The notes: generated from the sequence alone by a model not told the origin. DNA of 64,000 bases from a virus (IMGVR_UViG_3300028299_000132:1-64000); one strand, 5' to 3'. Shown: positions 1,998 to 37,366, counted from the stretch's first letter. A program made the numbers and translations.

Positions 1998-2789
1998 ATG
2001 AAAATATTAAAAGTATACTTTTACACTGAACTAGAGATAAAATATTTGATATTGAATCTATTAGAATCATATGATTATATAGATAAACTCTTAATATTAG
2101 AATATAATACAACACATACTGGTGATAAAAAGGACTATATATGGGAGGATTATAAACATTTATTTCCAGAAGATAAAATGGATAAAGTTGAATATCACAC
2201 GATTGATTTATCTCATATAATAAAAAAGACTGATAATGAGGATATTATACACAAAGTAAATGAAAGATATATGAGAGGGTATTTTACAAAACTTATTGAT
2301 TTAAAAGATGATGATATAGTCGTATCGGTTGACGCGGATGAAATTATATACGGTGAAATGTATCCAAAATTATTTGATTATGTTGAAAAAAATGGTTTTT
2401 GTACTCTTAAAATGCATCAATTTTTTTATAGATATGATTATTTATGGTATGATAGTGAATGGATAGCACCAATAATTTCAAAATACAAATATCATAAGAA
2501 TGATTTTCCATCCAACTGGAGATATGGTGGAAATGTCACTGAAGACTTTGTTGGATGTCATTTTTCTTGGTGTATGAATGTTGATGATATGATTTATAAA
2601 TTAAATCACTATAGTCACTCACCAACTTATAAAAGATTCGCTGATAAAGAATTATTAGAAAACGCGATAAAAAATAAGATATATCCATTTGATTTGAAGA
2701 AAAAATTTAATATAAAAGTTTTGAATGATGAAGAAAAAGTAAAATATCTTCCTAAAAATTTTGAAAAAATAAATTTATTTAATGATTAA
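1998..2789 (+). CDS. GT17-like glycosyltransferase (beta-1,4-GlcNAc transferase-like)
   Basis: E-x-N-x-THTG, DDIVVSVDADEI and GCHFSW motifs; start moved to the ATG at 1998, just after the upstream stop. Confidence 0.75.
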   Translation: MKILKVYFYTELEIKYLILNLLESYDYIDKLLILEYNTTHTGDKKDYIWEDYKHLFPEDKMDKVEYHTIDLSHIIKKTDNEDIIHKVNERYMRGYFTKLIDLKDDDIVVSVDADEIIYGEMYPKLFDYVEKNGFCTLKMHQFFYRYDYLWYDSEWIAPIISKYKYHKNDFPSNWRYGGNVTEDFVGCHFSWCMNVDDMIYKLNHYSHSPTYKRFADKELLENAIKNKIYPFDLKKKFNIKVLNDEEKVKYLPKNFEKINLFND

Positions 2790-4152
2790 ATTAATAGTTT
2801 TTGACTTAGATGGCGTCCTAGTAACAACAAAAGAATTACATTATCATTCTTTGAATAAATCAATAGAATCAATTGATAGTAAGTATATTATAACTCTAAA
2901 TGAACATCATGAAAAATATGATGGATTACCAACTAGTAGAAAACTTCAAATGTTGACTGTTGAAAAAGGTTTACCAGAAAAATATCATAATCAAATATAT
3001 AGAGATAAACAGAAATATACATTTGATTTAATAAGAGAACAAATAAAAAGAGATGACAGACTAATATCTATTCTTAAACAGTTAAAAGATGATGGATATA
3101 TGGTTTATGTCGCTAGTAACGCGATTCGGGAGACCGTGAAACTTCTTTTATATCATAGTGGACTAATGGAATATGTTGACTATTTTATATCAAATGAGGA
3201 TGTAAAAAATTCTAAACCGAATTCCGAGATTTATCTACGATGTATGACACATTCTGGTGTAAATCCTGATGAAACACTAATCATAGAAGACTCTCCTCGT
3301 GGTATAGAAGCAGCAAGAAACTCTAAGGCACATTTACTTATGGTAAAGAACCCAAATGACGTATCATATGAAAAAATAATTAATTCTATGAAGATTAAAA
3401 ACAAAAATAAATTTAAAATTAATAATTTAAATATTCTTATTCCGATGGCGGGTTTGGGTAGCAGATTTGAAGAAGCCAATTATACGTTTCCTAAACCATT
3501 GATAGATATTTATGGCAAACCAATGATTCAACTAGTTATAGAAAATCTTGGAATAGAAGCAAATTATATTTATGTTGTTCGAAAGGAACATTGTGAAAGA
3601 TTTAATTTAAAAACTTTATTAAATATTATGACTCCTGATTGCAAAATTGTAGAAGTGAACGAAGTAACATCTGGAAGTGCTTGCACGACTTTAATGTCAG
3701 AAAAATTCATAAATAATGATGATATGCTTATGATAGCGAATTCAGATCAATTCATTCAATGGGATCCAATAAATTTTTATTATAAGATGATAGAAACAAA
3801 AGCTGACGGGGGGATACTAACATTTGAATCCATCCACCCAAAATGGTCGTATGCCAAGTTAAATGAAAATGGAATAGTTGAATGTGTTGCTGAAAAAAAT
3901 CCAATATCAAATCATGCAACAGTTGGAATTTATTGGTATTCTAGAGGATCTGATTATGTAAAATATGCTAAACAAATGATAGAAAAAAATATCAGAGTTA
4001 ATGGTGAATTTTATGTTTGTCCCATTTTTAATGAATATATTTTAGATAATAAAAAAATAATTACTTATGATGTTGATAAAATGATGGGATTGGGTGATCC
4101 GGAATCTTTGGAATTTTTTTTAAAAGAATATAAAAACTATGAAAAAGTTTAA
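2782..4152 (+). CDS. HAD phosphatase fused to sugar nucleotidyltransferase
   Basis: FDLDGVL...KP...IEDS (HAD domain), then IPMAGLGSRF...PKPLI and EKNPIS (NTP transferase domain). Confidence 0.88.
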   Translation: MIKLIVFDLDGVLVTTKELHYHSLNKSIESIDSKYIITLNEHHEKYDGLPTSRKLQMLTVEKGLPEKYHNQIYRDKQKYTFDLIREQIKRDDRLISILKQLKDDGYMVYVASNAIRETVKLLLYHSGLMEYVDYFISNEDVKNSKPNSEIYLRCMTHSGVNPDETLIIEDSPRGIEAARNSKAHLLMVKNPNDVSYEKIINSMKIKNKNKFKINNLNILIPMAGLGSRFEEANYTFPKPLIDIYGKPMIQLVIENLGIEANYIYVVRKEHCERFNLKTLLNIMTPDCKIVEVNEVTSGSACTTLMSEKFINNDDMLMIANSDQFIQWDPINFYYKMIETKADGGILTFESIHPKWSYAKLNENGIVECVAEKNPISNHATVGIYWYSRGSDYVKYAKQMIEKNIRVNGEFYVCPIFNEYILDNKKIITYDVDKMMGLGDPESLEFFLKEYKNYEKV

Positions 4153-7232: not shown

Positions 7233-9146
7233 ATGATAAAAATATTATTATCAGATGATAAGGAATATATTTTAGAAACATTAGAAATGATTATAGAAGA
7301 ATATATCCCAAATTGTATAATATATAAATCAACTTCTGGAAATCAATGTATTGAATTAGCTAAAAAGTATAAACCAGACTTGATAATAATAGATTATTTT
7401 ATGCCAAAATTGAATGGATGTGAAATTTGTAAGATAATAAAGAATGATTACGAAATAAAATACATACCAATAATATTTATAACTGGTGAAAAAATTTCAT
7501 TAGAAGAAAGAATTGATGGACTAAATATAGGAGCGGACGCGTTCGTTTTTAAACCAATAGAAGATGTTGGTGAATTTATAGCTCAAATAAATGTTATGTT
7601 ACGCATAAAAAACATGGAAGACAAACTGAGAGAAAATCAAGAATTGTTATCATCAAAATATTCAAAATTATTTGAAAATATGATGGATGGATTCGCTTTA
7701 CACGAGATGGTTTTAGATGATAATGGAAATCCCATAGATTATATCTATATGGAGATTAATGAGTCATTCAAAAAACAGGTTGGTATAGAAAAGATTGTTG
7801 GAAAGAGTGTATTGGAATTATTTCCAGGTATGGATAGAGATTGGATTGATATTTATGGAAAAGTAGCGTTAAATGGTGAAGAAATTAGATTTGAAAGATA
7901 TTTTAAACCACTAAATAAATGGTTTTCCATAACAACATTTTCACCAATAAAGAATTTTTTTGTTACAATAAGTTCTGATATAACAGAAAAGAAGGAATCA
8001 TCAGAACAACTAAGAATATTAGTATCAAAATTAAATGAAGAAAAAAACAGAGCGGAAAAATCAGATAGATTAAAATCCTCGTTTCTCGCGAATATTAGTC
8101 ATGAAATTCGAACACCTTTAAATTCAATAGTTGGATTCTCTAGATTATTACTTATGGTTGGAAGGGGTGAAAGAAGAAAGTATGTAAATATAATAGAAAA
8201 AAATTCAGAAATGTTATTAAATTTAATAGATGATATAATAGATTTATCAAAAATAGAATCTAGACAGATAAAGTTAAGGAATGATAGATGTAATTTATTA
8301 GGAATAATAAATGAGGTTCATATGTCAAATACTAGTAAAGATGATGTTAAATTTTATGTAGATGAAGGTCTGACTAACACGGTTATATATACGGATGAAT
8401 TCAGATTAAAACAAATTTTAAATAACCTTATCACAAATTCTATAAAATTTACAGATGATGGACATGTTAAAATAGGATATAAGTTAGAACCAAAAAATAT
8501 ACTATTTTATGTTGAAGATACTGGAATGGGTATTTCAGAGAAAGATAAAGATTATGTTTTTGAAAGATTTACTCAGTTAAACGAAAAAGATAATAGAGAA
8601 TATGGTGGAACTGGTCTTGGATTATCCATTTGTAAAAAAATAGTTGACATTTTAGGTGGTAAAATTTGGTTTGAGTCTGAGGTTGGTAAGGGAACAACAT
8701 TTTATTTTACAATACCATCAGATTATGTTCAAAAGATAAATAATGAGTATGATAGAATTAAAAAGCAACAAAAGAAAAAATATAATTGGAAGGGTAGAAA
8801 AATTCTAATTATAGACGATGATGATTATAGTTCAATGTTAATATCAAGAATATTAGAAAAAACCAATGTTCAAATTAGTTCCGTGGAATCTGCGATTGAG
8901 GCGTTGGTTATGATAGATAAAGAAAAATTTGATGCTATATTATCAGATATAAAATTATCAGATATGAATGGATTTGAGTTAGTTAAGAGAATAAAAATAA
9001 AAACAAATATACCCGTTATCGCTCAAACCGCATACGCGATGATGGATAAACGATCCGAAGCGATAGAAAGTGGGTTTGATGATTATTTAATAAAACCTAT
9101 AGATACATATAAGTTAATAAATACATTAAGTAAATATTTTGATTAA
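7233..9146 (+). CDS. Hybrid sensor histidine kinase (REC-PAS-HisKA-HATPase-REC)
   Basis: N- and C-terminal receiver domains, H-box SHEIRTPLN, N-box NLITNSIKF, DTGMG and GGTGLGL. Confidence 0.93.
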   Translation: MIKILLSDDKEYILETLEMIIEEYIPNCIIYKSTSGNQCIELAKKYKPDLIIIDYFMPKLNGCEICKIIKNDYEIKYIPIIFITGEKISLEERIDGLNIGADAFVFKPIEDVGEFIAQINVMLRIKNMEDKLRENQELLSSKYSKLFENMMDGFALHEMVLDDNGNPIDYIYMEINESFKKQVGIEKIVGKSVLELFPGMDRDWIDIYGKVALNGEEIRFERYFKPLNKWFSITTFSPIKNFFVTISSDITEKKESSEQLRILVSKLNEEKNRAEKSDRLKSSFLANISHEIRTPLNSIVGFSRLLLMVGRGERRKYVNIIEKNSEMLLNLIDDIIDLSKIESRQIKLRNDRCNLLGIINEVHMSNTSKDDVKFYVDEGLTNTVIYTDEFRLKQILNNLITNSIKFTDDGHVKIGYKLEPKNILFYVEDTGMGISEKDKDYVFERFTQLNEKDNREYGGTGLGLSICKKIVDILGGKIWFESEVGKGTTFYFTIPSDYVQKINNEYDRIKKQQKKKYNWKGRKILIIDDDDYSSMLISRILEKTNVQISSVESAIEALVMIDKEKFDAILSDIKLSDMNGFELVKRIKIKTNIPVIAQTAYAMMDKRSEAIESGFDDYLIKPIDTYKLINTLSKYFD

Positions 9147-10902: not shown

Positions 10903-11559
10903 TTAATTTTCATTTTTATCTTCAAATACTTTAAATGATTTGATATATTTCATATTCTCATCTAATGTATCATCCTGAGAACTAGTATACCATTCATCGT
11001 CAGGTTTATCAACTCTTTCTAGTAACACTCTGTAAAATAGAACATCATAAACTAGATTTTCAAATTTCATATGAGCGTGTGTATTTTGATTATATACCGC
11101 TTCTAAATCATGAAAAACATGTAATATTTTATTAAAATTCTTTTTATCTAAGAAATGCATTCTTATCTCAACATTAGTCATACCTCTTTTTTTATAATTA
11201 TCAACTATTTTATTCAATCTTTGTTCTAGTTCATAACCAAATGACCCGTGGCCAGTAGCGAAAACAACCGCTTCATTCACTTTATCCATATATGAATATC
11301 TCCTGTCTTTTATTGTATCGTTTATTAATTTTCTAACTAGTTTTTTAAAATCTTTACTATCTTTATCCTTGTTTCTATTTAAATAAATAATTTCTAATTC
11401 TGATAATTCATCTATTATTGTTGATATATTTCTTCCAGTTAGATATTTTTTAACATCATTTAATGAAACTTCTAACTTCTCATATCTATCTATTATTATA
11501 TTGATTTGTTTTTCTATTCTCTTTTCAATATTCTCCATATATTTTAATTTTTTATCCAT
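10903..11559 (-). CDS. Hypothetical protein with an internal MKYIKSFKVFE motif
   Basis: ORF; leader-like motif near the C-terminus. Confidence 0.65.
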   Translation of the reverse strand: MDKKLKYMENIEKRIEKQINIIIDRYEKLEVSLNDVKKYLTGRNISTIIDELSELEIIYLNRNKDKDSKDFKKLVRKLINDTIKDRRYSYMDKVNEAVVFATGHGSFGYELEQRLNKIVDNYKKRGMTNVEIRMHFLDKKNFNKILHVFHDLEAVYNQNTHAHMKFENLVYDVLFYRVLLERVDKPDDEWYTSSQDDTLDENMKYIKSFKVFEDKNEN

Positions 11560-12088
11560 AATACCAATCTAATGGTTTTGTTCTTATATCATCCAAATCA
11601 ATAATCAAACCCTCTTTATCTTTCATCTTCTTTATTGATTCCTTTTCCCTATCCATTATTCTATTTAGCACATCTGTGGCGTTATTAGAATAAAGTTCAT
11701 ATATTTCATTAACCAAGTCTATTATTTCTTGTTCTGTCATTTCGGTCGCTTTTATTAGAAATCTCCTGTATTTTAATATCGTATTCCACCTTTCTGGTAT
11801 GGAATTAACAATAGCTTTTTTTGTTATATCCTTTAGAGTCACTCTTCTATCAAGAACCACTAAGTTTATCCATTTATAAACTGTTGATTTGTCAAATGTA
11901 ACTTGATATAAATCAGATTTATAATCAGATTTCTCTTTACTTTTTATAATAACTTTTTCAACAAGTAATTTTTGAAATTGGTTTTCACCATATCCCATAG
12001 AAATCATATAATAAACATCATCATCATCTAAATAAAATTCATCATCTTCCCAATCAAAATCAGCTTCAAATAATTTTAAATATTTCAT
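11552..12088 (-). CDS. Hypothetical protein with leader MKYLKLFEADFDWED
   Basis: Shared leader plus acidic-aromatic motif. Confidence 0.7.
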   Translation of the reverse strand: MKYLKLFEADFDWEDDEFYLDDDDVYYMISMGYGENQFQKLLVEKVIIKSKEKSDYKSDLYQVTFDKSTVYKWINLVVLDRRVTLKDITKKAIVNSIPERWNTILKYRRFLIKATEMTEQEIIDLVNEIYELYSNNATDVLNRIMDREKESIKKMKDKEGLIIDLDDIRTKPLDWYYG

Positions 12089-12123
12089 TACAAACTATTT
12101 TTTTTTATTTATATTTTCATTTT

Positions 12124-12492
12124 TTAATATAAATCTTTATCTACCTCAAATTGTGGATATTTTTCAATTAGTTTAGAATATGAACGAATTTTCCACCCCA
12201 GGCATCCATCCCGGCCTGATACATAAATTAAAACATGATTATTAGCTGTAACTAATTTGTTAATTTCATCTCTTGTTAATTTTATAAAAGCTCCTGGTGA
12301 TTCCTCTACTCCATTACATCTATAATTATCAAATAATATTTTTGGAGAACTATTTGTCATAATATAAACATAATTACAATTATCATCATCATAATATTTA
12401 ACAAATACAAAATCTTGTGAATTTTCTTCATCCATCCATTCAAAATCATCAAAGTCAATGTCTATTTCTTCAAATAATTTTATGTATTTCAT
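12124..12492 (-). CDS. Hypothetical protein with leader MKYIKLFEEIDIDFDDFEW
   Basis: Shared leader plus acidic-aromatic motif. Confidence 0.7.
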   Translation of the reverse strand: MKYIKLFEEIDIDFDDFEWMDEENSQDFVFVKYYDDDNCNYVYIMTNSSPKILFDNYRCNGVEESPGAFIKLTRDEINKLVTANNHVLIYVSGRDGCLGWKIRSYSKLIEKYPQFEVDKDLY

Positions 12493-12503
12493 ATTTTTAT
12501 ATA

Positions 12504-14090
12504 TTAATTTTTCATTTCAAATTTTAAATTACCAGAATTATATACTCTTAGATATTTTAATTCATCCATTATTTCACATTCTGTCTTATTTTTATCATAT
12601 CCTTCCCTAACTAATTTGTCCTTACGAAAATTGAATCTACTATTTCTATTTAGAGTTCTATCAAAATAATAATAGTTTGGTTGTGTTTTTCCTTTATATT
12701 GAAATCCTAATTTTTTATATAAATCACCTACACTCCACGAACGGTCTGCGTATGTTGTAATTATTTTTGGTGAATAATTTTCAATAAAATATTTAAACAA
12801 TTTTTGTGCACCACCAATAACATTGGTATTCAATTTTGAACAAAATCTTAATAATTCATATTCACCCTCTTCTGTACTCTTTTTCCCAATTGAAACTCTT
12901 CTTTTTCCAAACGTCATTAAACTCACTAACTCTTCGTCATAAAAAAGACCAATTTTCACACTTGAGCCAATAAATCCCTGAATATGATTTTTTTCTAAAA
13001 ATTCACGAATTAATTTATTATCATCAATTCCATGAATTTCACATTTTCTTCCATATATTTTATTTCTAGTTTTTCCTAATTTATTTAATATCATTGATTT
13101 AACAATCTTTTCTTTATTGAACCACTCATCTTCATAGATATGAATTAACTGAATTCCTTTTTCTTCACATAATTCTGTTTTTTCTAGATGATAATTTCTA
13201 TCCTTATATAAATCAGAATGCCAGTATATTCCATTAAATTCAAATGCTAATTTTAAATTAGGGATATAAATATCCAACTCTTTCTTTATTAATGACTGAT
13301 TATTTTCCTCTATATCACCATTATAATTATCTTTAATAAAATTTAATATATTTATTTCTTGTCCAGATTGTTTTATTCCTATTAATGGATTACAAATAGT
13401 ACAATATATTAATTTATTTCTATTTCTTTGGTACAAATTTTTAGCTGTTATATTAAAATAGTGACCATTATCACATCTTATATCTATTGTACGATCATTT
13501 TTAAGAATGAAGTTTTTTATATTATATTTTTCTAATTTTTCTAAAGCGTCTTTCTCCCATCGTTTATAAGTTTTTTTATAAAAATCTATAGTTTTACTAT
13601 AGTGTTCAACACCATATCTTTCCATATTAGTATTCTTTCTTCTATCAATTACTTTTTTATTTTCTAATGGAAATTCAACACCATATCTTTCCAAATTAGT
13701 TTTCTTTATTTTGTTTTTTACATCATCTGATAATAATGAACACTCAAATCCATACTTTTTTAAATTTGTTTTCTTAACTTTTTCTTGTATTTCTTTTACT
13801 TTCATAGGATTATCAACACCATATTTATTTAAATAGGATTGTTTTTTTGAACAGTTATGACATAAAAATCTTCCATATTTAAATAAATTTTTATTGTACT
13901 TATAATATGTAATTACTCTTTCTTTTCCACAATCAGAACATATAGATGTTATTCTTACTACTGAACCATTAGATAAATTTTCTGGTTTTATTTTAATAAT
14001 ATCATTTATTTTAACATCAAATCCATTATTTATATAATGTTTTATGTTTCTTTCTTTTACTATTATTTTTAATTCTTTTTCTTTTATCAT
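12504..14090 (-). CDS. Putative free-standing homing endonuclease (Zn ribbon, KKTNLxKYG repeats, PD-(D/E)XK-like nuclease, GNAT-like C-terminus)
   Basis: CxxC pairs, repeats and ELDIYIP...AFEFNGIYWH; paralog of 34450..36270. Confidence 0.75.
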   Translation of the reverse strand: MIKEKELKIIVKERNIKHYINNGFDVKINDIIKIKPENLSNGSVVRITSICSDCGKERVITYYKYNKNLFKYGRFLCHNCSKKQSYLNKYGVDNPMKVKEIQEKVKKTNLKKYGFECSLLSDDVKNKIKKTNLERYGVEFPLENKKVIDRRKNTNMERYGVEHYSKTIDFYKKTYKRWEKDALEKLEKYNIKNFILKNDRTIDIRCDNGHYFNITAKNLYQRNRNKLIYCTICNPLIGIKQSGQEINILNFIKDNYNGDIEENNQSLIKKELDIYIPNLKLAFEFNGIYWHSDLYKDRNYHLEKTELCEEKGIQLIHIYEDEWFNKEKIVKSMILNKLGKTRNKIYGRKCEIHGIDDNKLIREFLEKNHIQGFIGSSVKIGLFYDEELVSLMTFGKRRVSIGKKSTEEGEYELLRFCSKLNTNVIGGAQKLFKYFIENYSPKIITTYADRSWSVGDLYKKLGFQYKGKTQPNYYYFDRTLNRNSRFNFRKDKLVREGYDKNKTECEIMDELKYLRVYNSGNLKFEMKN

Positions 14091-14193
14091 AAAACTCCAT
14101 AGGTATTATTTCTTATTTGTATATAGTAATTTTTGCATACCAAAATAAACATTATCAGAAATTAATGATATATAAAATAAAAAATATTTATTT

Positions 14194-15309
14194 ATGTTAG
14201 TTCAGGATAATGAAAAATTTAACAGATTGATTATCGGTGGAAGAGAATTACTGATAAAAAAGAAATTTCAAGACTCGTATAAAAATTATAAAACCGCGTT
14301 AGATATAAGTCCTGATAATGAATATGTTAAAGAACAAATAAAAAAAATAGAAAAGTATTTTTATCTAGAAAAAAAATATACAGAGAAAAAAGCGGAGTAT
14401 GATTATAACAAAGCGATGCAACTCGCTCTCAAATTAGTTCTAAACGGAACATATGGAGCGTTCGCGAATAAATACTTTGTCCTGTCTAATGCGAAAATCG
14501 CGAACGCGATTACTTCAATGGGTCGTAATGTTATTCAATATATGTTAGAAAATATAGAAAATTATTTTTATAATGAATGGCATAAAGATGTAGAATCACA
14601 TAAATTACTTGGATTGGAATATTTAGTACAAAATAAAAATGATAATAATTATTATTTTCTTAATAGAAATTACGAATCAATTGACAGACCATTCTCACAA
14701 TTCAATACTGGTGATATGCACAATGATATTCTAAAATCTAGAAATATTCCAATAAGTAGATTAAAGAAAGTTGAAGAATATGAAGTTGGTGATTGGAAAA
14801 TTTTATATGAATATCATATTTTTGATTTTAGTAATGTAAAACCATTAGATAATAATCCAGGTTGGGAAATGATAGATGAAAAAAGAATATCAAATCCAGA
14901 TGAGATATTTAAATCGTATACAGGTGAGAATCATTTATTAATTTATGGTGATACAGATTCAATTTTTTCTGATACACAGATAGATACAGATAAAGGAATA
15001 TATACTATCGAAGAATTATATAATAATAATATTAAAAATGGTTCCGCTGGAGTTACATTAAAAGGTCATGAATCTGTTAATTGTAAAGAAAAGGTTTTAA
15101 ACTGGGATAATGATTTATATTATGCACAAGTTAAAAGGATTATAAGACATAAAGTATCAAAACCAAAATGGAAGTTAAAAACAAAAACAGGTAAAGAAAT
15201 AATAGCAACTAATGATCACTCAATGATTGTTTTTAGGTCTGGTAAAAAACTAGAAGTCAAACCATCTAATATTTTAAGAACTGATAAAATATTGGTTGTA
15301 AAAAAATGA
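14194..15309 (+). CDS. Family-B DNA polymerase fragment (motif B to YGDTD) fused to the N-half of a split intein
   Basis: QLALKLVLNGTYG (motif B), LIYGDTD, then intein block A SIFSDTQI and block B IIATNDH, ending at a stop. Confidence 0.92.
   Translation: MLVQDNEKFNRLIIGGRELLIKKKFQDSYKNYKTALDISPDNEYVKEQIKKIEKYFYLEKKYTEKKAEYDYNKAMQLALKLVLNGTYGAFANKYFVLSNAKIANAITSMGRNVIQYMLENIENYFYNEWHKDVESHKLLGLEYLVQNKNDNNYYFLNRNYESIDRPFSQFNTGDMHNDILKSRNIPISRLKKVEEYEVGDWKILYEYHIFDFSNVKPLDNNPGWEMIDEKRISNPDEIFKSYTGENHLLIYGDTDSIFSDTQIDTDKGIYTIEELYNNNIKNGSAGVTLKGHESVNCKEKVLNWDNDLYYAQVKRIIRHKVSKPKWKLKTKTGKEIIATNDHSMIVFRSGKKLEVKPSNILRTDKILVVKK
14959..15306 (+). mobile_element. Split intein N-half (IntN, 116 aa)
   Basis: Begins with Ser right after YGDTD; TIEELY, TxDH block B; no C-terminal HN. 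Confidence 0.9.
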
Positions 15310-15350
15310 TATTTTTAATTTTATATATAGTTTAGGAAGGTGTTGTAATT

Positions 15351-16445
15351 ATGCTCAATAATATTACATTTATAGAAAAATCAAAAAAAATTCATGGAGA
15401 CAAATATGATTATTCTTCAGTTGAATATGAAAAATCAAATATAAAAGTTAAAATAATTTGTAAAAAACATGGTGTATTTTTTCAAACACCTTCTGCTCAT
15501 TTACAAGGAAGGGGGTGTGTTATTTGTGGGGGGAGTAAAAAATATACAAATGATTTATTTATTAAAAAATCAAAAAAAATTCACGGAGACAAATATGATT
15601 ATTCTTTAGTTGATTACAAATCAATGAAAAGTAAAGTAAAAATTATTTGCAGAAAACATAAGATTTTTGAACAAAAACCAGAAAGTCATCTAAATGGTCA
15701 TATCTGTAAAAGGTGTTATAATGAGAATAGAACAATGACAGATGTGAAATTCATAAAAAAATCAAAAGATCTTCACGGAGATAAGTACGATTACTCATTA
15801 GTCGATTATAAAAATTCTAAAACTAAAGTAAAGATAATCTGTAAAGAACATGGTGTTTTCGAACAGGTTCCATCCGCTCATTTAAGTGGACAAGGATGTA
15901 AATATTGTGCAGATATCACTAAAAGATTAACTATAATGGATTTCATAAAAAAATCAAAAGAGATTCACGGAGATAAGTACGATTATTGTAATGTAAAATA
16001 TGTTAATAATTATACAAAAGTTGAAATAATATGTGATAAACATGGTAGTTTTTTCCAATCACCTAATTATCATATGCTAGGGCAGGGGTGCCCAAATTGT
16101 CAAATAAGTCTATTGGAGAATAATATTAAAAAATTATTAGATAAAAATAATATAAATTATGAACAACAAAAAACTTTTGAGGATTGTAAAAATATTAATA
16201 AGTTACCGTTTGATTTTTACTTAATAGATTTTAAAATATGTATAGAATGTAATGGGAAACAACATTATAAACCAGTAAAATATTTTGGTGGAGACAAAAC
16301 ACTAAGTTATATACAAAAAAATGATAAAATTAAAAAAACATTTTGTATAGAAAATAATATAAAATATATTGAAATTAGTTATTTAATGTTAGAAAATGAA
16401 ATAGAAAAAATTATAGATGATGTAAAAGATGGAATATTATTTTGA
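15351..16445 (+). CDS. Free-standing endonuclease between the split-intein halves
   Basis: Four repeats of FIxKSKxxHGDKYDY...KVxIICxxH...CxxC and a C-terminal PFDFYL...IECNGKQHY Vsr/PD-(D/E)XK-like domain. Confidence 0.85.
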   Translation: MLNNITFIEKSKKIHGDKYDYSSVEYEKSNIKVKIICKKHGVFFQTPSAHLQGRGCVICGGSKKYTNDLFIKKSKKIHGDKYDYSLVDYKSMKSKVKIICRKHKIFEQKPESHLNGHICKRCYNENRTMTDVKFIKKSKDLHGDKYDYSLVDYKNSKTKVKIICKEHGVFEQVPSAHLSGQGCKYCADITKRLTIMDFIKKSKEIHGDKYDYCNVKYVNNYTKVEIICDKHGSFFQSPNYHMLGQGCPNCQISLLENNIKKLLDKNNINYEQQKTFEDCKNINKLPFDFYLIDFKICIECNGKQHYKPVKYFGGDKTLSYIQKNDKIKKTFCIENNIKYIEISYLMLENEIEKIIDDVKDGILF

Positions 16446-16557
16446 TGAAGTAGAAAGTTGTGAATTGATAGGCGGATTTGAAGAAGAATATGTATATGAT
16501 ATAGAGGTGAATGACGATACTCACACATTTATTGCAAATGATATTTTGGTACACAAT
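16429..16557 (+). mobile_element. Split intein C-half (IntC, 43 aa)
   Basis: Blocks F and G ending in HN, followed by Ser+1. Confidence 0.92.
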
Positions 16558-17409
16558 AGTCTGTATATCAGTTATTTACCAATTATTAAATCCGTTGGAT
16601 TTACTGGAAACGAACTAGAGTTTATATTACATGTTGATAAAGTTTTTGTAAAGAAACTATTTAAAAAGTTTTTGGATGAGTACGCGGAACCATATGATGT
16701 TGAGAATGAACACGATTTTGAATTAGAGACAATCAATAAGTCTGCGATACACTTAGAGAAAAAACATTATATCAATAACGTTGTATGGGAAGATGGTATA
16801 TTTTATGATAGTTTATCATATTTCTTCCCAAAAGGAATTGAGATCGTTCGTTCATCTACACCATCTTTTGTTAGAGGAAAAAATCAACAAGGTGGAATTT
16901 GGGATTTCATAAGATATTTATTTTCCAATCCAGATAATTTAGATATAAGAAATGTTTTGAGATTAGTAAAGGAACAGAGAAAAGCGTTTGAAATGGATGA
17001 TATAGAAAACATCAGTATGAATACATCATGTACGAATTATGATGATAAGGTTGTTAATGATGTAACTAGCATAGAAGTAACAAAAGGTTCACATTTTTCT
17101 ATTAAAGCGGCCGCTTTTCATAATTATTTGTTGAATAAAAATTCTGAATATAAGACAAAATATGATATGATAAAATCTGGTAAGATAAAATATTATTATT
17201 GTAATAGTTCATTAAATAATGTTTTCGCTTATATGAGGAGTTTTCATCCATATGAAATAACTGAAAAAGAAGGAGTTATAATTGATTATGAGGTTCAATT
17301 TGAAAAATGTTATTTAACATTGGTGAATAAATTTATAGAACCACTAGGACTACCTATGATAAACAAAAGATTATCAGTATTAAATTCACTGTTTGATTTC
17401 AAAAAGTAA
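16429..17409 (+). CDS. C-half of a split intein fused to the C-terminal palm/thumb fragment of family-B DNA polymerase
   Basis: VYDIEV...HTFIANDILVHN|SLY; then FELE, KKHY and KGIEIVRSSTP polB motifs. Confidence 0.92.
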   Translation: MEYYFDEVESCELIGGFEEEYVYDIEVNDDTHTFIANDILVHNSLYISYLPIIKSVGFTGNELEFILHVDKVFVKKLFKKFLDEYAEPYDVENEHDFELETINKSAIHLEKKHYINNVVWEDGIFYDSLSYFFPKGIEIVRSSTPSFVRGKNQQGGIWDFIRYLFSNPDNLDIRNVLRLVKEQRKAFEMDDIENISMNTSCTNYDDKVVNDVTSIEVTKGSHFSIKAAAFHNYLLNKNSEYKTKYDMIKSGKIKYYYCNSSLNNVFAYMRSFHPYEITEKEGVIIDYEVQFEKCYLTLVNKFIEPLGLPMINKRLSVLNSLFDFKK

Positions 17410-17411
17410 AG

Positions 17412-18227
17412 TTATATTCTTTCTATAATTAGTTTTGTGTGTGTTGTATTTTTTATCACTATTCCAAACGCTTTAATAATTCTTTTCTGTATTGGTTCAA
17501 ATATGAAATTATTTTTGTAAATCATCTTATAATTTCTTGGTATTTTTTTATATAATGTTTCTAGGGTTATTGGTAAATAATTTTCTTTAACCTCCCGTTC
17601 CCAATTATCTATGTAAGAAAATTTCAATAACCAATGTAAAAATGTTCTATAATCATTATCTATTAGACCCCAGATGTTTTCAAAAGAGTTGAGATATTTT
17701 TTATCCGATAGTTTATTAACTTTTTTAACATCTTCTAAAAATTCTTCTTTACTAATACTCGCTGATGGTATCATATCACGGATAACAATATATTTAAAAC
17801 AACCACCAAAAACTTTTTCTTCCCAAAACTTTTTAATTTCTTTTGTATCAGAATAAGAATATACTTCGTGTATAACACTAGATAATAACAATACTGAATT
17901 TTTATAATTTTTAGCTATATTTATAACATCATTCCAATTATTGGTAAATTTAGCGGATGGGACATTTGATTTAGCTAGATTTAACATATCTGTAGAAACA
18001 TCATATCCAACTAATTGTATTGAAGAATCTGTTTTATTTATATTTTTTAATATTTTTCCGTCAGCACATCCAAAATCAACTATTAAATCAGTATCTATTT
18101 TTTCCATAAAAAATAACTTATCTACTACTGATTTCTCTAATCCTTTATTGTAACTACTAATATTTTCTATAGGTGATTCCTTTACCTTTTCTAATAATCT
18201 AAATATTTTATATGAATATAGTCTCAT
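17412..18227 (-). CDS. Class I SAM-dependent methyltransferase
   Basis: IVDFGCADG, VGYDVS and LSSVIHE motifs. Confidence 0.8.
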   Translation of the reverse strand: MRLYSYKIFRLLEKVKESPIENISSYNKGLEKSVVDKLFFMEKIDTDLIVDFGCADGKILKNINKTDSSIQLVGYDVSTDMLNLAKSNVPSAKFTNNWNDVINIAKNYKNSVLLLSSVIHEVYSYSDTKEIKKFWEEKVFGGCFKYIVIRDMIPSASISKEEFLEDVKKVNKLSDKKYLNSFENIWGLIDNDYRTFLHWLLKFSYIDNWEREVKENYLPITLETLYKKIPRNYKMIYKNNFIFEPIQKRIIKAFGIVIKNTTHTKLIIERI

Positions 18228-18253
18228 AAAAGATATATATTAAAATATTCTTA

Positions 18254-19744
18254 TCATTTAGTTGATTCTGGTCTTCTCGCAGCGGAACGATGAGAATATC
18301 TACCTGGTATCGTCACTGAAGTTTGTGTAGGTTGTTCAATTACATTTTTTTTTTCTAATTTTTCATTTATAACTCTCAGTTTGTAATCAAATTCAGCTTT
18401 CATATCTCGTATTATATCTTCTACATTGTCCTTATTATCAATATTTTGAAGTCTTTCACCCATATTTTCTATATATTCTTTGAAATCGTCTTTAAGATTT
18501 TCTGTATAGTCATTTATCAAATTTTTTATTTTGTCATCAGTATAATCTTTCTTCAAATTACCAATTTGATATTTTATATTATCTAATTCTGTCTTAATAT
18601 CATCATAATCTGATGTATTTGATATCAATTCAGTTATTTCTTTTTCTTCAAAAATAGATGTGTCAACAGAATTGTCAAGAGTTTTTTTTTCACTCTCAGT
18701 TGTATCTTCCTGACTTACAATATCTTCCGTTTCTTCTTGTTTTTCACTGATAATCTCTGATTCTAATTCATCAGTAACCACTTCGGGTTCTAGATTCTCG
18801 ATTTTTTCTTTTTTCTTGAAAACTTTTTTGAAACTATTAAGAATGTCAATTTTCTTTTTCTTCTTAGGGTCCTCAACAACAATTATCCGATTATCGTCTA
18901 ATTCACCAATTTTAACCATTGAAAGTCTATTAGCGACGATTATAAGTAATATCGCGAATGGGTCAAACACGAATATGATTAAAGATATCAAAAATCCAAC
19001 AACATCATCCATAGGTTTTCCTGATAAATCAGCGAGATATTTTAATGGCCCAATTTCTACCGAGATATCAGAACTTTCTAATTCTAATATTTCCCTATCA
19101 TATTTACTTATTGAATCGTTTAAAGAGTTTATTTTTGCGTATAATTGTGTATTTTGTTCTCTTAAATCATTTATCTGAGTATCAACTTCTTTTATATTAT
19201 TTTGTGTTTCTCTCGCTCTGTTTCTAAATACAGAACTTTGATTATTAGTTAATGTAGTATCAGTACTCTTGTTATAAAGATTTGATACAACATTTTCTTG
19301 TGTAGTTCTATTTCCTATATAAGTATTTATTTGATTATTTTTACTATCAATTTCTTTTTGATATCTATCAATTTCTAATTGAAATGTAGATTTTCGTTGG
19401 TCTGCGATTTTGGTTTCTTTTTGTATAGTTGTATATTTATTTGAAGTCGCATCGTACGCGTTTTTTAAAAACCCATATATACCAAGTGATGTTAAAGACA
19501 TTATACCAACAATCATACAGATGGATATAAATTTTATAATATTAGAGAAAATTTTCCAAAATCTGTATATAACACTAACATATACTAATTTTCCAAATTC
19601 TAAAGCCCCAAACAATATTAATGCTGATATTCCCGCACCAGCGAACAGTTTAGAGAGACCAAAAACACTAAAATACGCTGCGGTTCCAGCGATAACAATA
19701 GCTGTGAATGATAACAAAAGTACAAACAACCATGTTTTTTTCAT
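18254..19744 (-). CDS. Membrane protein with long coiled coils
   Basis: Three N-terminal hydrophobic segments, a coiled coil, an internal TM segment (IIFVFDPFAILL) and an acidic tail. Confidence 0.7.
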   Translation of the reverse strand: MKKTWLFVLLLSFTAIVIAGTAAYFSVFGLSKLFAGAGISALILFGALEFGKLVYVSVIYRFWKIFSNIIKFISICMIVGIMSLTSLGIYGFLKNAYDATSNKYTTIQKETKIADQRKSTFQLEIDRYQKEIDSKNNQINTYIGNRTTQENVVSNLYNKSTDTTLTNNQSSVFRNRARETQNNIKEVDTQINDLREQNTQLYAKINSLNDSISKYDREILELESSDISVEIGPLKYLADLSGKPMDDVVGFLISLIIFVFDPFAILLIIVANRLSMVKIGELDDNRIIVVEDPKKKKKIDILNSFKKVFKKKEKIENLEPEVVTDELESEIISEKQEETEDIVSQEDTTESEKKTLDNSVDTSIFEEKEITELISNTSDYDDIKTELDNIKYQIGNLKKDYTDDKIKNLINDYTENLKDDFKEYIENMGERLQNIDNKDNVEDIIRDMKAEFDYKLRVINEKLEKKNVIEQPTQTSVTIPGRYSHRSAARRPESTK

Positions 19745-22501: not shown

Positions 22502-23905
22502 ATGAGTAAAATAGTTGACACTTTATTTGATGGTATATTAGTATATGATGACTCTAATCATATACAGAAAGAGGAAGTTGTTGAAGAAACTAAATCAAAG
22601 ACAGATTACAAGAAATACACATCAAAATTTTTCTTTCCAAAAAAGAAAGAAGAAGAAATAAATGAGGATGATGATACTCCGAGATATAAATGTGATACAA
22701 TGTCAACTATGAGTGTATCTGGTTTTATTGATTTATTGGAAGATAATGGATATAAAAGTGGTGTAAAGAAATGGAATGTTTTTATACCAAATGGATATAA
22801 TGATATTGATGAAAAATTAAAAAAAGTAAAAATATCCAATGATGAACAATTTATATTCGCTATTCCAGGGTGTGATAATCTAGTTAGTAAATATAATGTT
22901 TGGAAGAGTTTAGTGGATAAATACGGCCGTGAAACCGCGTCAACCATCGTTCCAGAATCATTTTTACTAGATAATAAAGAAGATGTTGAATTATTAAAAA
23001 AATTTGATAATCAGAAGTTTATCCTAAAGAAAAAGAAACAACGAAAACTTGGATTAAAATTAGTTGATAAAATTGAAGATATTTCAAAACTAAAAAAAGA
23101 AGAATACACAATAGCACAAAAATACTTAAAACCATTTCTAGTTAATGACAGGAAAGTAAATCTTAGAATATACTTACTTATTACATTGAAAAACAATGAA
23201 ATAACTATTTATGTTTCAAAATTTGGTTCCTGCATTTATACAAAACACGAATATGATCATAGTTCGTGTGATTTTGAAAAAAATATCACATCATATAATA
23301 TGGATTTATCAATCTATGAAGAGAATCCATTGACACTAGAACAATTAAAAACTTATCTGAAAAATAATGGGTTCGACCACATTGATATTTTTTCTAAAAT
23401 AGAGAATAAGATAAAATTGTTTATTTGTGCGATAAAAGATCAATTGGGTGATGAAAAATTTAATAAAAATATGTGTTTTCAGGTTTTTGGTATGGATTTT
23501 ATCCTAGATGAGAATTTAGACCCATTTCTATTAGAATGTAATAAAGGTCCAGAGATGAAACCAAAGGTAACACAAATAGAAGATCCAGATGATATTACAG
23601 AGGATATGATAAATCAAATTAATATTCTTAAAGAAACATTAAATAATGGTGATGATGGCATTGACAAAATCAAAAAGATTAAATCTTGTTACATAAAAAT
23701 TTATAAAGGATTTCCAAAAAATGTTTCAAGAACTGTTATAATGGAAAGAATTGAAAAATTCTATAAAGAAGAAAAAGAACTTGATTCATATCCAAATGGT
23801 TATATAACAGGAAATGGAATTAAAGTTCAAAAAGATACATTACATATAATGAATCTCATAGAGAATAATGAAAATAATGGATTTATAAAAGTTGATGTTA
23901 AATGA
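22502..23905 (+). CDS. Tubulin-tyrosine ligase / polyglutamylase family ATP-grasp enzyme
   Basis: PESFLL, FILKK...QRKLG, IAQKYL.PFLVNDRKVNLRIYLL and FQVFGMDFILDENLDPFLLECNKGP. Confidence 0.85.
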   Translation: MSKIVDTLFDGILVYDDSNHIQKEEVVEETKSKTDYKKYTSKFFFPKKKEEEINEDDDTPRYKCDTMSTMSVSGFIDLLEDNGYKSGVKKWNVFIPNGYNDIDEKLKKVKISNDEQFIFAIPGCDNLVSKYNVWKSLVDKYGRETASTIVPESFLLDNKEDVELLKKFDNQKFILKKKKQRKLGLKLVDKIEDISKLKKEEYTIAQKYLKPFLVNDRKVNLRIYLLITLKNNEITIYVSKFGSCIYTKHEYDHSSCDFEKNITSYNMDLSIYEENPLTLEQLKTYLKNNGFDHIDIFSKIENKIKLFICAIKDQLGDEKFNKNMCFQVFGMDFILDENLDPFLLECNKGPEMKPKVTQIEDPDDITEDMINQINILKETLNNGDDGIDKIKKIKSCYIKIYKGFPKNVSRTVIMERIEKFYKEEKELDSYPNGYITGNGIKVQKDTLHIMNLIENNENNGFIKVDVK

Positions 23906-36270: not shown

Positions 36271-37366
36271 TTATTTCATTTTTAAACTCATTTTTTAATT
36301 TCAAAAATATTTTAAATATTTTTATTTCCGAATCATTTAATTTTGTGTCTGTCCAATATCCAGGGTGTTTTTGAATTGTTGAATCATCTAGTTTCTTTTT
36401 GAAATCTATAAGCGTATGTACATTATTTTCACCAGTATTTCGGTCACTAGTCAAAATTATATCATTATAATCAATCATAAGAAATGTATACCCATCTTGT
36501 ATTTGTTTAAATTCAGCTATATATGAATTATTTTTTATTTTTTTATTTAAAATAACAACCCAGAAATACCCATCTATGATATGTTGGTTGTATATTTTCT
36601 CAGATATAGTACACCAGTATGGGTATTTTATTATATTCATTGATTCATAAGTGAATGGTTGATAAATCAACCATTCATCATCTTCATAATATATTTTTAT
36701 ATCATTTGATTTTTTTAATTTTGATATATTATCTGCACTTATTAATGATTCAGTGCCTCTAACATATTTTATCCATTCTTTAGGAGTCTCAAACATAGAT
36801 ATTTTACCTCTCAATAGACCAATATCTATATTATCAATAAATCTTTTTTTATCAAATCGTCCAGGATTAAATAGAACATTTCTAAGATTAAAAAAATTAT
36901 CTTTCTTCCTATCCTTTAATTCTTTTTTTAAAAATCCAGGAGCCCATTTATCTATAAATTTATTTGTATCTATATCTTTTTTAATGTTGTTTATATCTAT
37001 TATAAGAGAAGAATGATAATTATCTATCTGTTTAATATATTTATCTATGTCTATTTTAATATTGTGATTAACAATTAAATCAATACACCTCATTATGTTA
37101 TCTAATATAGATTTCTTATCTCTTCCATTACGATTATATAATTCTAGATATAATAATCTAGTGAACAAATATAAATATCCAAGTTTACCTAAAGATTTTA
37201 AATTATTTTTTATTATTGAGTATATTTCTAAAAAATTCTTCCATTCCTCATCTGTTTGTAAATACCTACCCTCCATCCCACCGTGTTTTGATGTCCCTTT
37301 AGGTCTATTATTTACAAATTTTTCAGCTTGCTGTAAATTTTCAAATATTTTATAATCTTTTATCAT
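36263..37366 (-). CDS. Hypothetical protein with leader MIKDYKIFEN
   Basis: Shared leader; WLIYQPFTYES...WCT motif. Confidence 0.65.
   Translation of the reverse strand: MIKDYKIFENLQQAEKFVNNRPKGTSKHGGMEGRYLQTDEEWKNFLEIYSIIKNNLKSLGKLGYLYLFTRLLYLELYNRNGRDKKSILDNIMRCIDLIVNHNIKIDIDKYIKQIDNYHSSLIIDINNIKKDIDTNKFIDKWAPGFLKKELKDRKKDNFFNLRNVLFNPGRFDKKRFIDNIDIGLLRGKISMFETPKEWIKYVRGTESLISADNISKLKKSNDIKIYYEDDEWLIYQPFTYESMNIIKYPYWCTISEKIYNQHIIDGYFWVVILNKKIKNNSYIAEFKQIQDGYTFLMIDYNDIILTSDRNTGENNVHTLIDFKKKLDDSTIQKHPGYWTDTKLNDSEIKIFKIFLKLKNEFKNEIIK

What the first reader, a model, noticed from the sequence alone, without database searches (positions are those of the whole stretch)
14194..14960. The polymerase is in at least three pieces: no motif A or exonuclease domain, and a TPR-like cap instead
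Seen: the N-fragment starts with a TPR-like helical hairpin (YKNYKTALDISPDNEYV) and goes straight into the fingers motif B. Neither fragment contains DxxSLYPS or the Exo motifs, the upstream gene is divergent, and there is a long insert between motifs B and C. Inference: the exonuclease/motif-A half is encoded elsewhere and joins non-covalently, as in two-subunit gp43A/B phages. The enzyme would then need both subunit assembly and trans-splicing.
Basis: partly seen in the sequence, partly recalled or inferred. Interest (0 to 1): 0.72.

Follow-up and report, generated by a model that had tools for sequence, protein, structure and literature searches.

The report
Split phage DNA polymerase, TPR-capped half
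This gene is the back half (second finger helix, palm, thumb) of a T4-type DNA polymerase that huge Bacteroidota phages encode as two far-apart genes; that layout is already known, but this lineage adds a small TPR cap at the cut and a domain with no known fold.

Summary
ORF 14194-15309 starts with a TPR-like helix hairpin, runs into the motif B finger helix, and has about 105 extra residues before YGDTD. Motif A and the exonuclease motifs are absent from this gene and from the whole 98-kb record. The upstream gene is divergent.

The inference is largely right, but the arrangement is not new. The cut lies at the fingertip, where gp43A ends in T4-like phages such as Acinetobacter phage Stupor.

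- **Complete relatives:** each of three megaphages (640-735 kb) carries one N-half gene of about 500 aa (exonuclease, motif A, first finger helix) and one C-half gene, 116-120 kb apart.
- **Other relatives:** the halves lie 10 kb to about 173 kb apart, or are adjacent in reversed order.
- **This record:** it is a fragment (CheckV 12% complete), so its own N-half was not seen.
- **Cultured precedent:** Tenacibaculum phage PTm1 is already annotated with the same three pieces, including the split intein and a Vsr endonuclease gene.

Three features appear to be new. A single TPR motif was gained once in this sub-clade. A conserved beta-rich insert has no match among solved structures. The two genes lie very far apart. 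A complex model supports assembly of the halves but does not show it.

The scan noted the same stretch before (e1-6016824). Modest interest: a new variant of a known kind.

The parts
12504..14090 (-). Divergent upstream gene, 528 aa. It looks like a mobile endonuclease (DUF7487 repeats plus a weak Vsr/MTES_1575-like match) and is multi-copy in close relatives.
   Evidence: PF24308, E 1.5e-17. L159 holds 2 copies and L161 holds 4. The intein-free relatives L160 and L163 have none.
14091..14193 (.). AT-rich intergenic region of 103 bp between the divergent genes. The promoter of the C-half gene presumably lies here.
   Evidence: The divergent junction is also present in the intein-free relatives L160 and L163. 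No promoter was tested.
14194..14319 (+). N-terminal cap, aa 1-42: a single TPR-like motif with helix A (aa 3-21) and helix B (aa 25-38).
   Evidence: It was gained once in the capped clade.
14320..14466 (+). Second finger helix (helix P equivalent), aa 43-91. It contains motif B, KLVLNGTYGA, at 14431-14460.
   Evidence: K80, N84, Y87 and G88 are invariant. It aligns to RB69 residues 523-606.
14587..14928 (+). Beta-rich insert domain, about aa 132-245, between the fingers/palm helix and motif C.
   Evidence: Folded alone at pLDDT 89.6. No match among solved structures: Foldseek best E 0.55, VIA best Z 3.2. It is conserved across the clade and shorter in uncapped forms.
14944..14958 (+). Motif C, YGDTD, the catalytic aspartates. 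This is the last stretch of N-extein before the intein.
   Evidence: Y251, D253 and D255 are invariant.
14959..15309 (+). N-terminal part of the split intein (aa 256-371) and the stop codon.
   Evidence: PF14890, E 7.4e-9. It is 69% identical to the matching part of phage PTm1.
15351..16445 (+). Free-standing homing-endonuclease-like gene lying between the two intein halves, in a different reading frame.
   Evidence: The polymerase frame has 39 stops across this stretch. PTm1 has an annotated VSR endonuclease at the same place.
16429..16557 (+). C-terminal part of the split intein (aa 1-43), ending in VHN just before Ser.
   Evidence: PF14890, E 8.6e-6. It is 74% identical to PTm1.
16558..17409 (+). 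C-extein: the rest of the palm (KKHY at 16759-16770), the thumb, and the C-terminal LNSLFDF (17380-17400).
   Evidence: It is 59% identical to the fused relative P0073.

Best explanation
ORF 14194-15309 encodes the first piece of the C-terminal subunit of a fingertip-split, T4/RB69 gp43-type family B DNA polymerase from a Bacteroidota-type megaphage.

**How the active enzyme is made up (inferred).**
- The N-subunit is about 500 aa. It carries the N-terminal domain, the 3'-5' exonuclease, motif A and the first finger helix with its Arg/Lys pair. It is encoded by a separate gene that lies outside this 98-kb fragment.
- The C-subunit carries the second finger helix with motif B, the rest of the palm with motif C and KKxY, and the thumb.
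- The two associate non-covalently. The two finger helices pair as an intermolecular antiparallel hairpin, and the palm sheet is completed across the interface.

**What is particular to this genome.** The C-subunit is itself made from two polypeptides. These must be joined by trans-splicing of a split intein at YGDTD|S, and a free-standing endonuclease gene lies between the two intein halves.

**The TPR motif.** The N-terminal single TPR motif is a clade-specific add-on. It packs on the start of the second finger helix, which serves as its capping helix. The most likely role is to stabilise the cut fingertip and to touch the acidic C-terminal tail of the N-subunit.

**Shown versus inferred.** Shown: the domain content, the position of the split, the conservation, and the arrangement in relatives. 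Inferred: that this phage has an N-half, that the pieces assemble, that the intein splices, and what the cap does.

**What the confidence covers.** The figure of 0.85 is for the two-gene, three-polypeptide architecture. The proposed role of the cap is held at only about 0.4-0.5.
For: **Domain content.**
- PF00136 matches profile positions 147-206 and 220-255 only.
- The intein splicing domain is found at the end of one ORF and at the start of the other.

**Catalytic residues are invariant on both halves.**
- C-half: K, N, Y, G of motif B, the two Asp of motif C, and the KKxY Lys.
- N-half: Exo I D/E, Exo II, Exo III, DFxSLYP, and the finger R468/K472.

**Position of the split.**
- The N-half profile aligns to RB69 up to residue 504, and the C-half begins at RB69 523.
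- The match to Acinetobacter phage Stupor ends exactly at the end of its annotated gp43A.

**Two genes per genome.**
- The halves are 116-120 kb apart in three complete megaphages.
- Of 30 long IMG/VR records that hold a C-half, 19 also hold a stand-alone N-half ORF of 466-536 aa. Ten of the 30 are at least 90% complete, and 9 of those 10 have it. The halves lie 14 to about 173 kb apart.
- In Lak-B8 the halves are about 9-13 kb apart. In G004 and G005 the C-half ORF is directly followed by the N-half ORF.

**A viable precedent.** The cultured phage PTm1 is annotated with the N-half, an intein-containing middle piece, a VSR endonuclease and a C piece.

**Close relatives (62-74% identity).**
- They show the same stand-alone capped C-half at a divergent junction, some with the intein and some without.
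- None has an N-half within the fetched DNA. Only L163 has a full 10 kb on each side; the other contigs end sooner.

**Complex model** (C-half P0020 with N-half P0121 residues 300-504).
- ipSAE is 0.86 and the best of 3 controls is 0.00.
- That mark was reached by 58 of 80 solved complexes and by 2 of 110 mismatched pairs. The counts hold only roughly, because my own alignments were used.
- The runs agree in at least 91% of contacts, and the partner's pLDDT is at least 69.
- Helix 53-82 of the C-half contacts helix 457-504 of the N-half.
- Palm strands 242-255 and 294-317 contact N-half 377-414.
- Cap residues 19, 22-23 and 25 touch the N-half.
- Because single-chain relatives such as RB69 are solved, the pass may reflect likeness to those structures rather than binding of this pair.

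**The cap.**
- It maps as one gain on the tree, built with the cap's own columns left out (SH-aLRT 91).
- N-halves that share a genome with a capped C-half have tails of 35-37 residues after the conserved Arg. Those paired with uncapped C-halves have 30-32.

**Literature.**
- Natural fingertip splits of gp43 are known, and phage 25 gp43A and gp43B co-purify with polymerase activity (PMC2988022, PMC3061061).
- Pfu polymerase split at the fingertip is fully active (PMC3061061).
Against: - **The N-half of this phage was not observed.** The record is a fragment, and gene order is not collinear with LR756501.1. Its existence and position are therefore extrapolated from relatives.
- **No expression, assembly or splicing data exist for this phage or its close relatives.**
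- **The TPR call is weak for the window protein alone.** It scores 14.6-14.8 bits against cut-offs of about 27. Helical matches at Z 8-11 can be a common arrangement, as the tool itself notes. A single TPR motif is atypical.
- **The cap contact is small.** Only four cap residues touch the N-half in one model of a 50%-identical relative.
- **The tail-length contrast is thin.** It rests on few independent lineages.
Confidence: 0.85

Rival explanations
1. The C-half is a decaying relic or a non-catalytic paralogue. The phage would replicate with another polymerase, and no partner N-half would exist.
For: Neither an N-half nor motif A is present in the 98 kb available. The gene is also broken by mobile elements.
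Against: - All catalytic residues are invariant across 42-56 homologues, with 46-78% pairwise identity.
- Both intein halves are intact and match the viable phage PTm1 at 69% and 74% identity.
- Complete relatives have exactly one N-half and one C-half, and no other polB.
Confidence: 0.04
2. The two halves are joined covalently, either by a second split intein at the fingertip or by RNA splicing across a group I intron.
For: This genome and its relatives are rich in inteins, homing endonucleases and, in related jumbo phages, group I introns (PMC12880540). Endonuclease-like genes flank both halves in relatives.
Against: - N-halves end in a plain amphipathic helix with no intein N block.
- C-halves begin Met plus TPR with no intein C block. 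Pfam finds the splicing domain only at the YGDTD|S site.
- No Rfam family, including group I introns, matches in 11000-19000 at E up to 1.
- In complete relatives the halves lie 116-120 kb apart on opposite strands.
Confidence: 0.03
3. The N-terminal hairpin is not an assembly cap. It would instead be a docking site for another replisome or host protein (helicase, primase, clamp loader or a chaperone-like factor), or a neutral helical extension of the fingertip.
For: - TPR motifs are generic protein-binding modules.
- Uncapped C-halves in sister clades evidently work without it.
- Only four cap residues contact the N-half in the model.
Against: - The cap sits exactly at the cut end of the finger.
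- It is conserved across two sub-clades that share little other sequence in this segment.
- N-half tails are longer where the cap is present.
Confidence: 0.35

Closest known systems
gp43A/gp43B bicistronic DNA polymerases of T4-like phages (Aeromonas phages 25, 44RR, 31, 65; Acinetobacter phage 133 and its relative Stupor). Sources: Petrov et al. 2006 and 2010, as cited in PMC3061061 and PMC2988022.
   Same: - The family is the same (gp43-type family B).
- The split point is the same, at the fingertip between the two finger helices. Stupor gp43A ends where the N-half family ends.
- The subunits are synthesised separately and associate non-covalently.
   Different: - In those phages the two cistrons are 2 bp to 3 kb apart on one strand.
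- In this clade they lie 10 kb to about 173 kb apart, often on opposite strands or in reversed order.
- Stupor gp43B is 390 aa. The C-half here is about 538 aa once spliced, because of the TPR cap and the insert of about 105 aa.
Tenacibaculum phage PTm1 (Shirahamavirus) ORF-236, ORF-239, ORF-240 and ORF-241, GenBank AP019524
   Same: - The three polymerase pieces are the same.
- The fingertip split is the same.
- The split intein sits at the same YxDTD|S site, with intein halves 69% and 74% identical to the window's.
- An endonuclease gene lies between the intein halves.
   Different: - The N-half is only about 2 kb upstream on the same strand.
- There is no TPR cap, and the motif B to C segment is much shorter (N-extein 145 aa against 255 aa).
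- The exteins are only 28-38% identical.
PhiKZ DNAP-N/DNAP-C (gp82/gp50) split family B polymerase, cryoEM preprint PMC13648687
   Same: - It is a two-gene family B polymerase that forms a stable 1:1 complex.
- The C-subunit has extra sequence both at its N-terminus and between the fingers and motif C.
   Different: - The PhiKZ split lies in a palm insertion after motif A, and both finger helices are on DNAP-C.
- Its insertion is mainly helical and is built from three segments.
- Here the cut is at the fingertip, and the insert is beta-rich with no structural match.
Fractured genes: a split intein with a free-standing homing endonuclease gene between the halves (Dassa et al. 2009, PMC2677866)
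   Same: The arrangement at 14959-16557 matches: the N part of the intein ends one ORF, an endonuclease ORF follows, and the C part of the intein starts the next ORF.
   Different: This concerns the second break, not the finding's N-terminal break. Here it sits inside a gene that is already split.

Membership tests
Family B DNA polymerase, T4/RB69 gp43 type (Pfam PF00136) | Motif B, KxxxNSxYG, on the second finger helix | tested here: met
   KLVLNGTYGA is at aa 80-89. K80, N84, Y87 and G88 are invariant. PF00136 E 6.3e-12, 45.4 bits against a cut-off of 23.
Family B DNA polymerase, T4/RB69 gp43 type (Pfam PF00136) | Motif C, YGDTDS, and the KKxY motif | tested here: met
   YGDTD is at aa 251-255, with Ser supplied after the intein. 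KKHY is at 16759-16770.
Family B DNA polymerase, T4/RB69 gp43 type (Pfam PF00136) | Motif A, DxxSLYPS, with the first catalytic Asp on the same polypeptide | tested here: not met
   It is absent from the ORFs and from the whole 98-kb record. In relatives it is present on the separate N-half gene.
Family B DNA polymerase, T4/RB69 gp43 type (Pfam PF00136) | 3'-5' exonuclease domain (PF03104; Exo I-III) | tested here: not met
   There are no PF03104 matches in the record at E up to 10. In relatives the domain is on the N-half.
gp43A/gp43B-type fingertip-split polymerase | The break lies between the two finger helices | tested here: met
   The N-half aligns to RB69 up to residue 504 and the C-half from 523. 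Stupor gp43A ends at the same position. The fused relative P0073 bridges the gap.
gp43A/gp43B-type fingertip-split polymerase | A complementary N-half gene in the same genome | not testable with these tools
   The record is a fragment, 12% complete. The feature is met in every complete relative examined.
gp43A/gp43B-type fingertip-split polymerase | The two polypeptides assemble into an active enzyme | not testable with these tools
   Only a model is available: ipSAE 0.86 against 0.00 for the best control, on a relative pair. Biochemistry exists for phage 25 and for split Pfu (PMC2988022, PMC3061061), but not for this clade.
Tetratricopeptide repeat (Pfam TPR_1, TPR_2, TPR_11) | Sequence match above the curated threshold | tested here: inconclusive
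   The window scores 14.6-14.8 bits against cut-offs of 26.8-27.8. Of 56 homologues, 20-21 hit TPR_1 or TPR_2 at E up to 0.1, best 4.9e-6.
Tetratricopeptide repeat (Pfam TPR_1, TPR_2, TPR_11) | Helix A-turn-helix B fold followed by a capping helix | tested here: met
   Helices 3-21, 25-38 and 43-91 at pLDDT about 97. Cpr7 Z 10.9 (rmsd 2.6 over 64) and Sti1 Z 10.2 (rmsd 1.3 over 60). Z in this range can be a common helical arrangement.
Tetratricopeptide repeat (Pfam TPR_1, TPR_2, TPR_11) | A tandem array of three or more motifs forming a groove | tested here: not met
   There is only one motif before the finger helix.
Fractured gene (split intein plus free-standing endonuclease gene) | Intein halves at the ORF end and the ORF start, with an endonuclease ORF between them and no read-through | tested here: met
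   PF14890 is found on both ORFs. There are 39 in-frame stops of all three kinds between 15307 and 16423. Intein-free alleles exist in close relatives.

The most novel reading that the evidence does not exclude
After the polymerase was cut at the fingertip, one megaphage lineage recruited a single TPR motif as a dedicated heterodimerisation clamp. The clamp would grip the acidic, amphipathic C-terminal tail of the N-subunit, much as co-chaperone TPR domains grip EEVD tails. It would compensate for the lost covalent link and allow the two genes to drift more than 100 kb apart. The orphan beta-domain between motifs B and C would be a second lineage-specific module of this two-subunit enzyme.
Probability: 0.3. 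Interest if true: 0.5.

Novelty: new variant of a known kind. Interest (0 to 1): 0.36.

Why it matters
- **Annotation of huge phages.** The replicative polymerase of the largest known phages (Mahaphage/Lak-type and many jumbo relatives) is obligatorily a two-gene enzyme, and here a three-polypeptide one. This affects how polB is used as a marker, how completeness is judged, and how these genomes are annotated. Half-length polB genes in these genomes are not pseudogenes.
- **A natural experiment on split enzymes.** The clade offers capped and uncapped versions, versions with and without the intein, adjacent, permuted and distant gene pairs, and one fused form.
- **Possible tools.** The TPR cap and the insert with no known fold are candidates for engineering split polymerases. 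An engineered fingertip split in Pfu changed nucleotide-analogue tolerance (PMC3061061).

Tried and rejected
The contigs of the closest protein hits (P0001-P0012, P0150) could not be fetched.
- **The N-half was not found in this record.**
  - Searches used Pfam PF03104, tblastn with a fused relative and three N-halves, a small profile against six-frame ORFs, and a motif A regular expression.
  - Nothing was found.
- **The 116-120 kb spacing cannot be transferred to this genome.** Shared genes with LR756501.1 exist, but their order is not collinear.
- **The listing of cluster members gave no accessions that pair an N-half with a window-like C-half**.
- **The N-half group P0148-P0164 is not clearly the window's partner clade.**
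  - A copy identical to P0150 lies in metagenome 3300037087, as does a capped C-half.
  - That C-half is only 48% identical to the window and sits on a different contig.
  - The partner clade remains unidentified.
- **A group I intron or other known RNA was rejected.** No Rfam match in 11000-19000 at E up to 1.
- **Stop-codon reassignment that would make the intein continuous was rejected.**
  - There are 39 stops of all three kinds in frame.
  - The standard code already gives near-full coding.
- **The whole-model Foldseek search against solved structures gave no significant match** (best E 0.23). Its top local hits were TPR domains.
- **The insert domain folded alone gave no match**. This shows neither that the fold is new nor what it does.
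- **No promoter was read in 14091-14193.** There is no clear Bacteroidota -7 motif by eye, and this was not pursued.

Full report
**What is there**

The window is the first 64 kb of a 98,091-base virus record with 25% G+C. CheckV rates it 12% complete, which implies a genome of several hundred kb.

ORF 14194-15309 (+, 371 aa) matches Pfam DNA_pol_B only over profile positions 147-206 and 220-255. It ends with the N part of an intein splicing domain. ORF 16429-17409 begins with the C part of that domain (...VHN|S) and carries the rest of the palm and thumb. An endonuclease-like ORF (15351-16445) lies between them in another frame. The polymerase frame has 39 stops of all three kinds between 15307 and 16423. 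The break is therefore real and not a matter of genetic code.

The landmarks are as follows.

| Feature | Residues |
|---|---|
| Motif B, KLVLNGTYGA | aa 80-89 |
| Motif C, YGDTDS | aa 251-256 |

The upstream gene (12504-14090) is on the other strand.

**The missing half**

Neither this gene nor any of the 98 kb holds an exonuclease domain or motif A.

- PF03104 gives no match at E up to 10.
- A fused relative's first 500 residues find nothing by tblastn.
- Three N-halves from relatives, and a profile built from them, find nothing better than E about 0.25.
- A motif A pattern is absent in all six frames.

**Relatives settle the interpretation**

The nearest database proteins (64-71% identity) are 535-547 aa. 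That is the length of the spliced C-half. They carry PF00136 alone, and of the 120 listed hits only one is a fused 973-aa protein.

The best matches among deposited phages are the 735-kb and 634-642-kb 'huge phages' and the Lak megaphages. These form the Mahaphage clade, which is predicted to infect Bacteroidetes (PMC7162821).

In three complete or near-complete relatives, polB is two genes. These are LR756501.1, G003 (640 kb, terminal repeats, 100% complete) and G001 (676 kb).

- The N-half is 493-504 aa from its first Met. It has the exonuclease domain and PF00136 positions 18-157.
- The C-half lies 116-120 kb away on the opposite strand.
- There is no complete polB elsewhere.

The N-half ends inside the first finger helix, just after the conserved Arg/Lys pair. 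The fused relative P0073 shows that the break lies at the loop between the two finger helices.

Mapping on RB69 gp43 gives the same answer. The N-half aligns up to residue 504 and the C-half from residue 523.

The stand-alone N-half is a large family of at least 1204 proteins, about 484-508 aa. Catalytic residues are invariant on both halves.

Spacing between the halves varies widely.

| Genomes | Arrangement |
|---|---|
| LR756501.1, G003, G001 | 116-120 kb apart, opposite strands |
| 19 of 30 long IMG/VR records | N-half ORF present, 14 to about 173 kb from the C-half |
| IMG/VR contig 3300025715_000021, capped C-half | about 10 kb apart on one contig |
| Lak-B8 | about 9-13 kb apart, C-half first |
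| G004, G005 | adjacent, in reversed order |
| PTm1 | about 2 kb apart |

Ten of the 30 long IMG/VR records are at least 90% complete, and 9 of those 10 hold the N-half.

Close relatives of the window were recovered from metagenomes at 62-74% identity. They have the same stand-alone capped C-half at a divergent junction. Some carry the intein-plus-endonuclease allele (L159, L161) and some have an uninterrupted gene of 536-538 aa (L160, L163, L164). None has an N-half within the DNA fetched. Only L163 has a full 10 kb on each side.

**How it most likely works**

The enzyme is a non-covalent heterodimer in which the fingers are rebuilt from one helix of each subunit.

A complex model was made for a relative pair, C-half P0020 with residues 300-504 of N-half P0121.

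- It scored ipSAE 0.86, with the best of three controls at 0.00.
- That mark was reached by 58 of 80 solved complexes and by 2 of 110 mismatched pairs. These counts hold only roughly, because my own alignments were used.
- The runs agree in at least 91% of contacts, and the partner's pLDDT is at least 69.

The contacts have heptad-like spacing between C-half helix 53-82 and N-half helix 457-504. The motif A strands (377-414) pair with the motif C and KKxY strands (242-255, 294-317).

Single-chain relatives such as RB69 are solved. The pass may therefore reflect likeness to those structures, and it does not show binding.

Published work supports feasibility.

- gp43A and gp43B of phage 25 co-purify and polymerise (PMC2988022).
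- Pfu polymerase cut at the fingertip behaves like the wild type (PMC3061061).
- The differently split PhiKZ polymerase forms a stable 1:1 complex (PMC13648687).

In this genome the C-subunit must first be ligated by trans-splicing. That PTm1 is a cultured lytic phage with the same arrangement argues the arrangement works.

**The TPR-like cap**

AlphaFold2 predicts helices 3-21 and 25-38 packed on the start of a 49-residue helix that carries motif B, at pLDDT about 97. Residues 1-64 align with the last TPR plus capping helix of co-chaperone TPR domains.

- Cpr7: Z 10.9, rmsd 2.6 over 64 residues.
- Sti1 TPR2AB: Z 10.2, rmsd 1.3 over 60 residues.
- Foldseek local hits: rmsd 0.8-1.8 over 38-62 residues, but E 0.23 or worse.
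- For helical repeats, the tool warns that such Z values may reflect only a common arrangement.

By sequence the window's own match is sub-threshold. Even so, 20-21 of 56 family members hit TPR_1 or TPR_2, with a best E of 4.9e-6.

The cap is absent from the 453-486-aa C-halves and from PTm1. On a tree built without the cap's own columns, capped forms make one group (SH-aLRT 91). One gain therefore suffices.

In the complex model only cap residues 19, 22-23 and 25 touch the N-half, near its C-terminus. N-halves from genomes with a capped C-half have tails of 35-37 residues after the conserved Arg. Those from uncapped genomes have 30-32.

I read the cap as a stabiliser of the cut fingertip that also touches the partner's tail. 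This is inference, at roughly 40-50% confidence. A role in docking some other protein is not excluded.

**The insert**

About 105 extra residues lie between the palm helix and motif C. They fold confidently (pLDDT 89.6) as a beta-rich domain. No match was found among solved structures: Foldseek best E 0.55, VIA best Z 3.2. The insert is conserved across the clade and is shorter in uncapped forms. Its function is unknown.

**Comparison with what is known**

Fingertip-split gp43 is established. Stupor gp43A (502 aa) ends exactly where this N-half family ends. PTm1 already carries the three-piece annotation.

The split intein with an endonuclease gene between its halves is the 'fractured gene' arrangement (PMC2677866). 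Jumbo gut phages are also reported to have polymerase genes split by endonuclease insertions (PMC12880540).

What differs here is the cap, the insert, and the very large and variable distance between the genes.

**Verdict**

- The class is known, and this is a new variant of it.
- This phage's own N-half remains unseen.

Noticed in passing
window 14959-15306 and 16429-16557, compared with L023 (PTm1): The intein halves are 69% and 74% identical between this megaphage and phage PTm1, while the flanking polymerase exteins are only 38% and 28% identical. The endonucleases between the halves share only a C-terminal stretch at 24% identity. This suggests recent horizontal spread of the intein. Intein-free alleles exist in close relatives (L160, L163, L164).
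   Followed up: partly
window 12504-14090 and 34450-36270; L159, L161; L009, L011, L012: DUF7487-containing genes that look like endonucleases are multi-copy. The window has two, L161 has four copies of the 528-aa type, and similar genes flank both polymerase halves in LR756501.1, G001 and G003. The 528-aa gene is absent next to the intein-free alleles.
   Followed up: partly
G004:C1:18077-20709 and G005:C1:8427-11059: In these phage contigs the C-half ORF (451 aa) is directly followed by the N-half ORF (525 aa). The gene order is circularly permuted relative to the protein.
   Followed up: no
P0073 (973 aa, from a 3.2-kb JGI contig): This is the only fused polB among the 120 listed C-half hits. 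On the C-half tree it sits inside the split clade, on a long branch. It could be a secondary re-fusion or an artefact.
   Followed up: partly
window 7233-9146 and 37363-38595: Two hybrid histidine kinase/response-regulator genes (HisKA, HATPase_c, Response_reg) are encoded by the phage.
   Followed up: no
window 22502-23905 and 2782-4152: The window also has a tubulin-tyrosine-ligase-family gene and a fusion of a HAD phosphatase with a nucleotidyl transferase.
   Followed up: no
whole 98-kb record: Among ORFs of 150 aa or more, the stops are TAA 56, TGA 19 and TAG 2. The standard code gives near-full coding, so TAG is rare but there is no sign that it is reassigned. Lak relatives do show in-frame TAG.
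   Followed up: partly
C-termini of W01-like C-halves (for example P0020, residues about 530-566): The W01-like capped C-halves carry an extra acidic tail after the conserved LNSLFxF ending. The window-like forms lack it and end at LNSLFDFKK.
   Followed up: no
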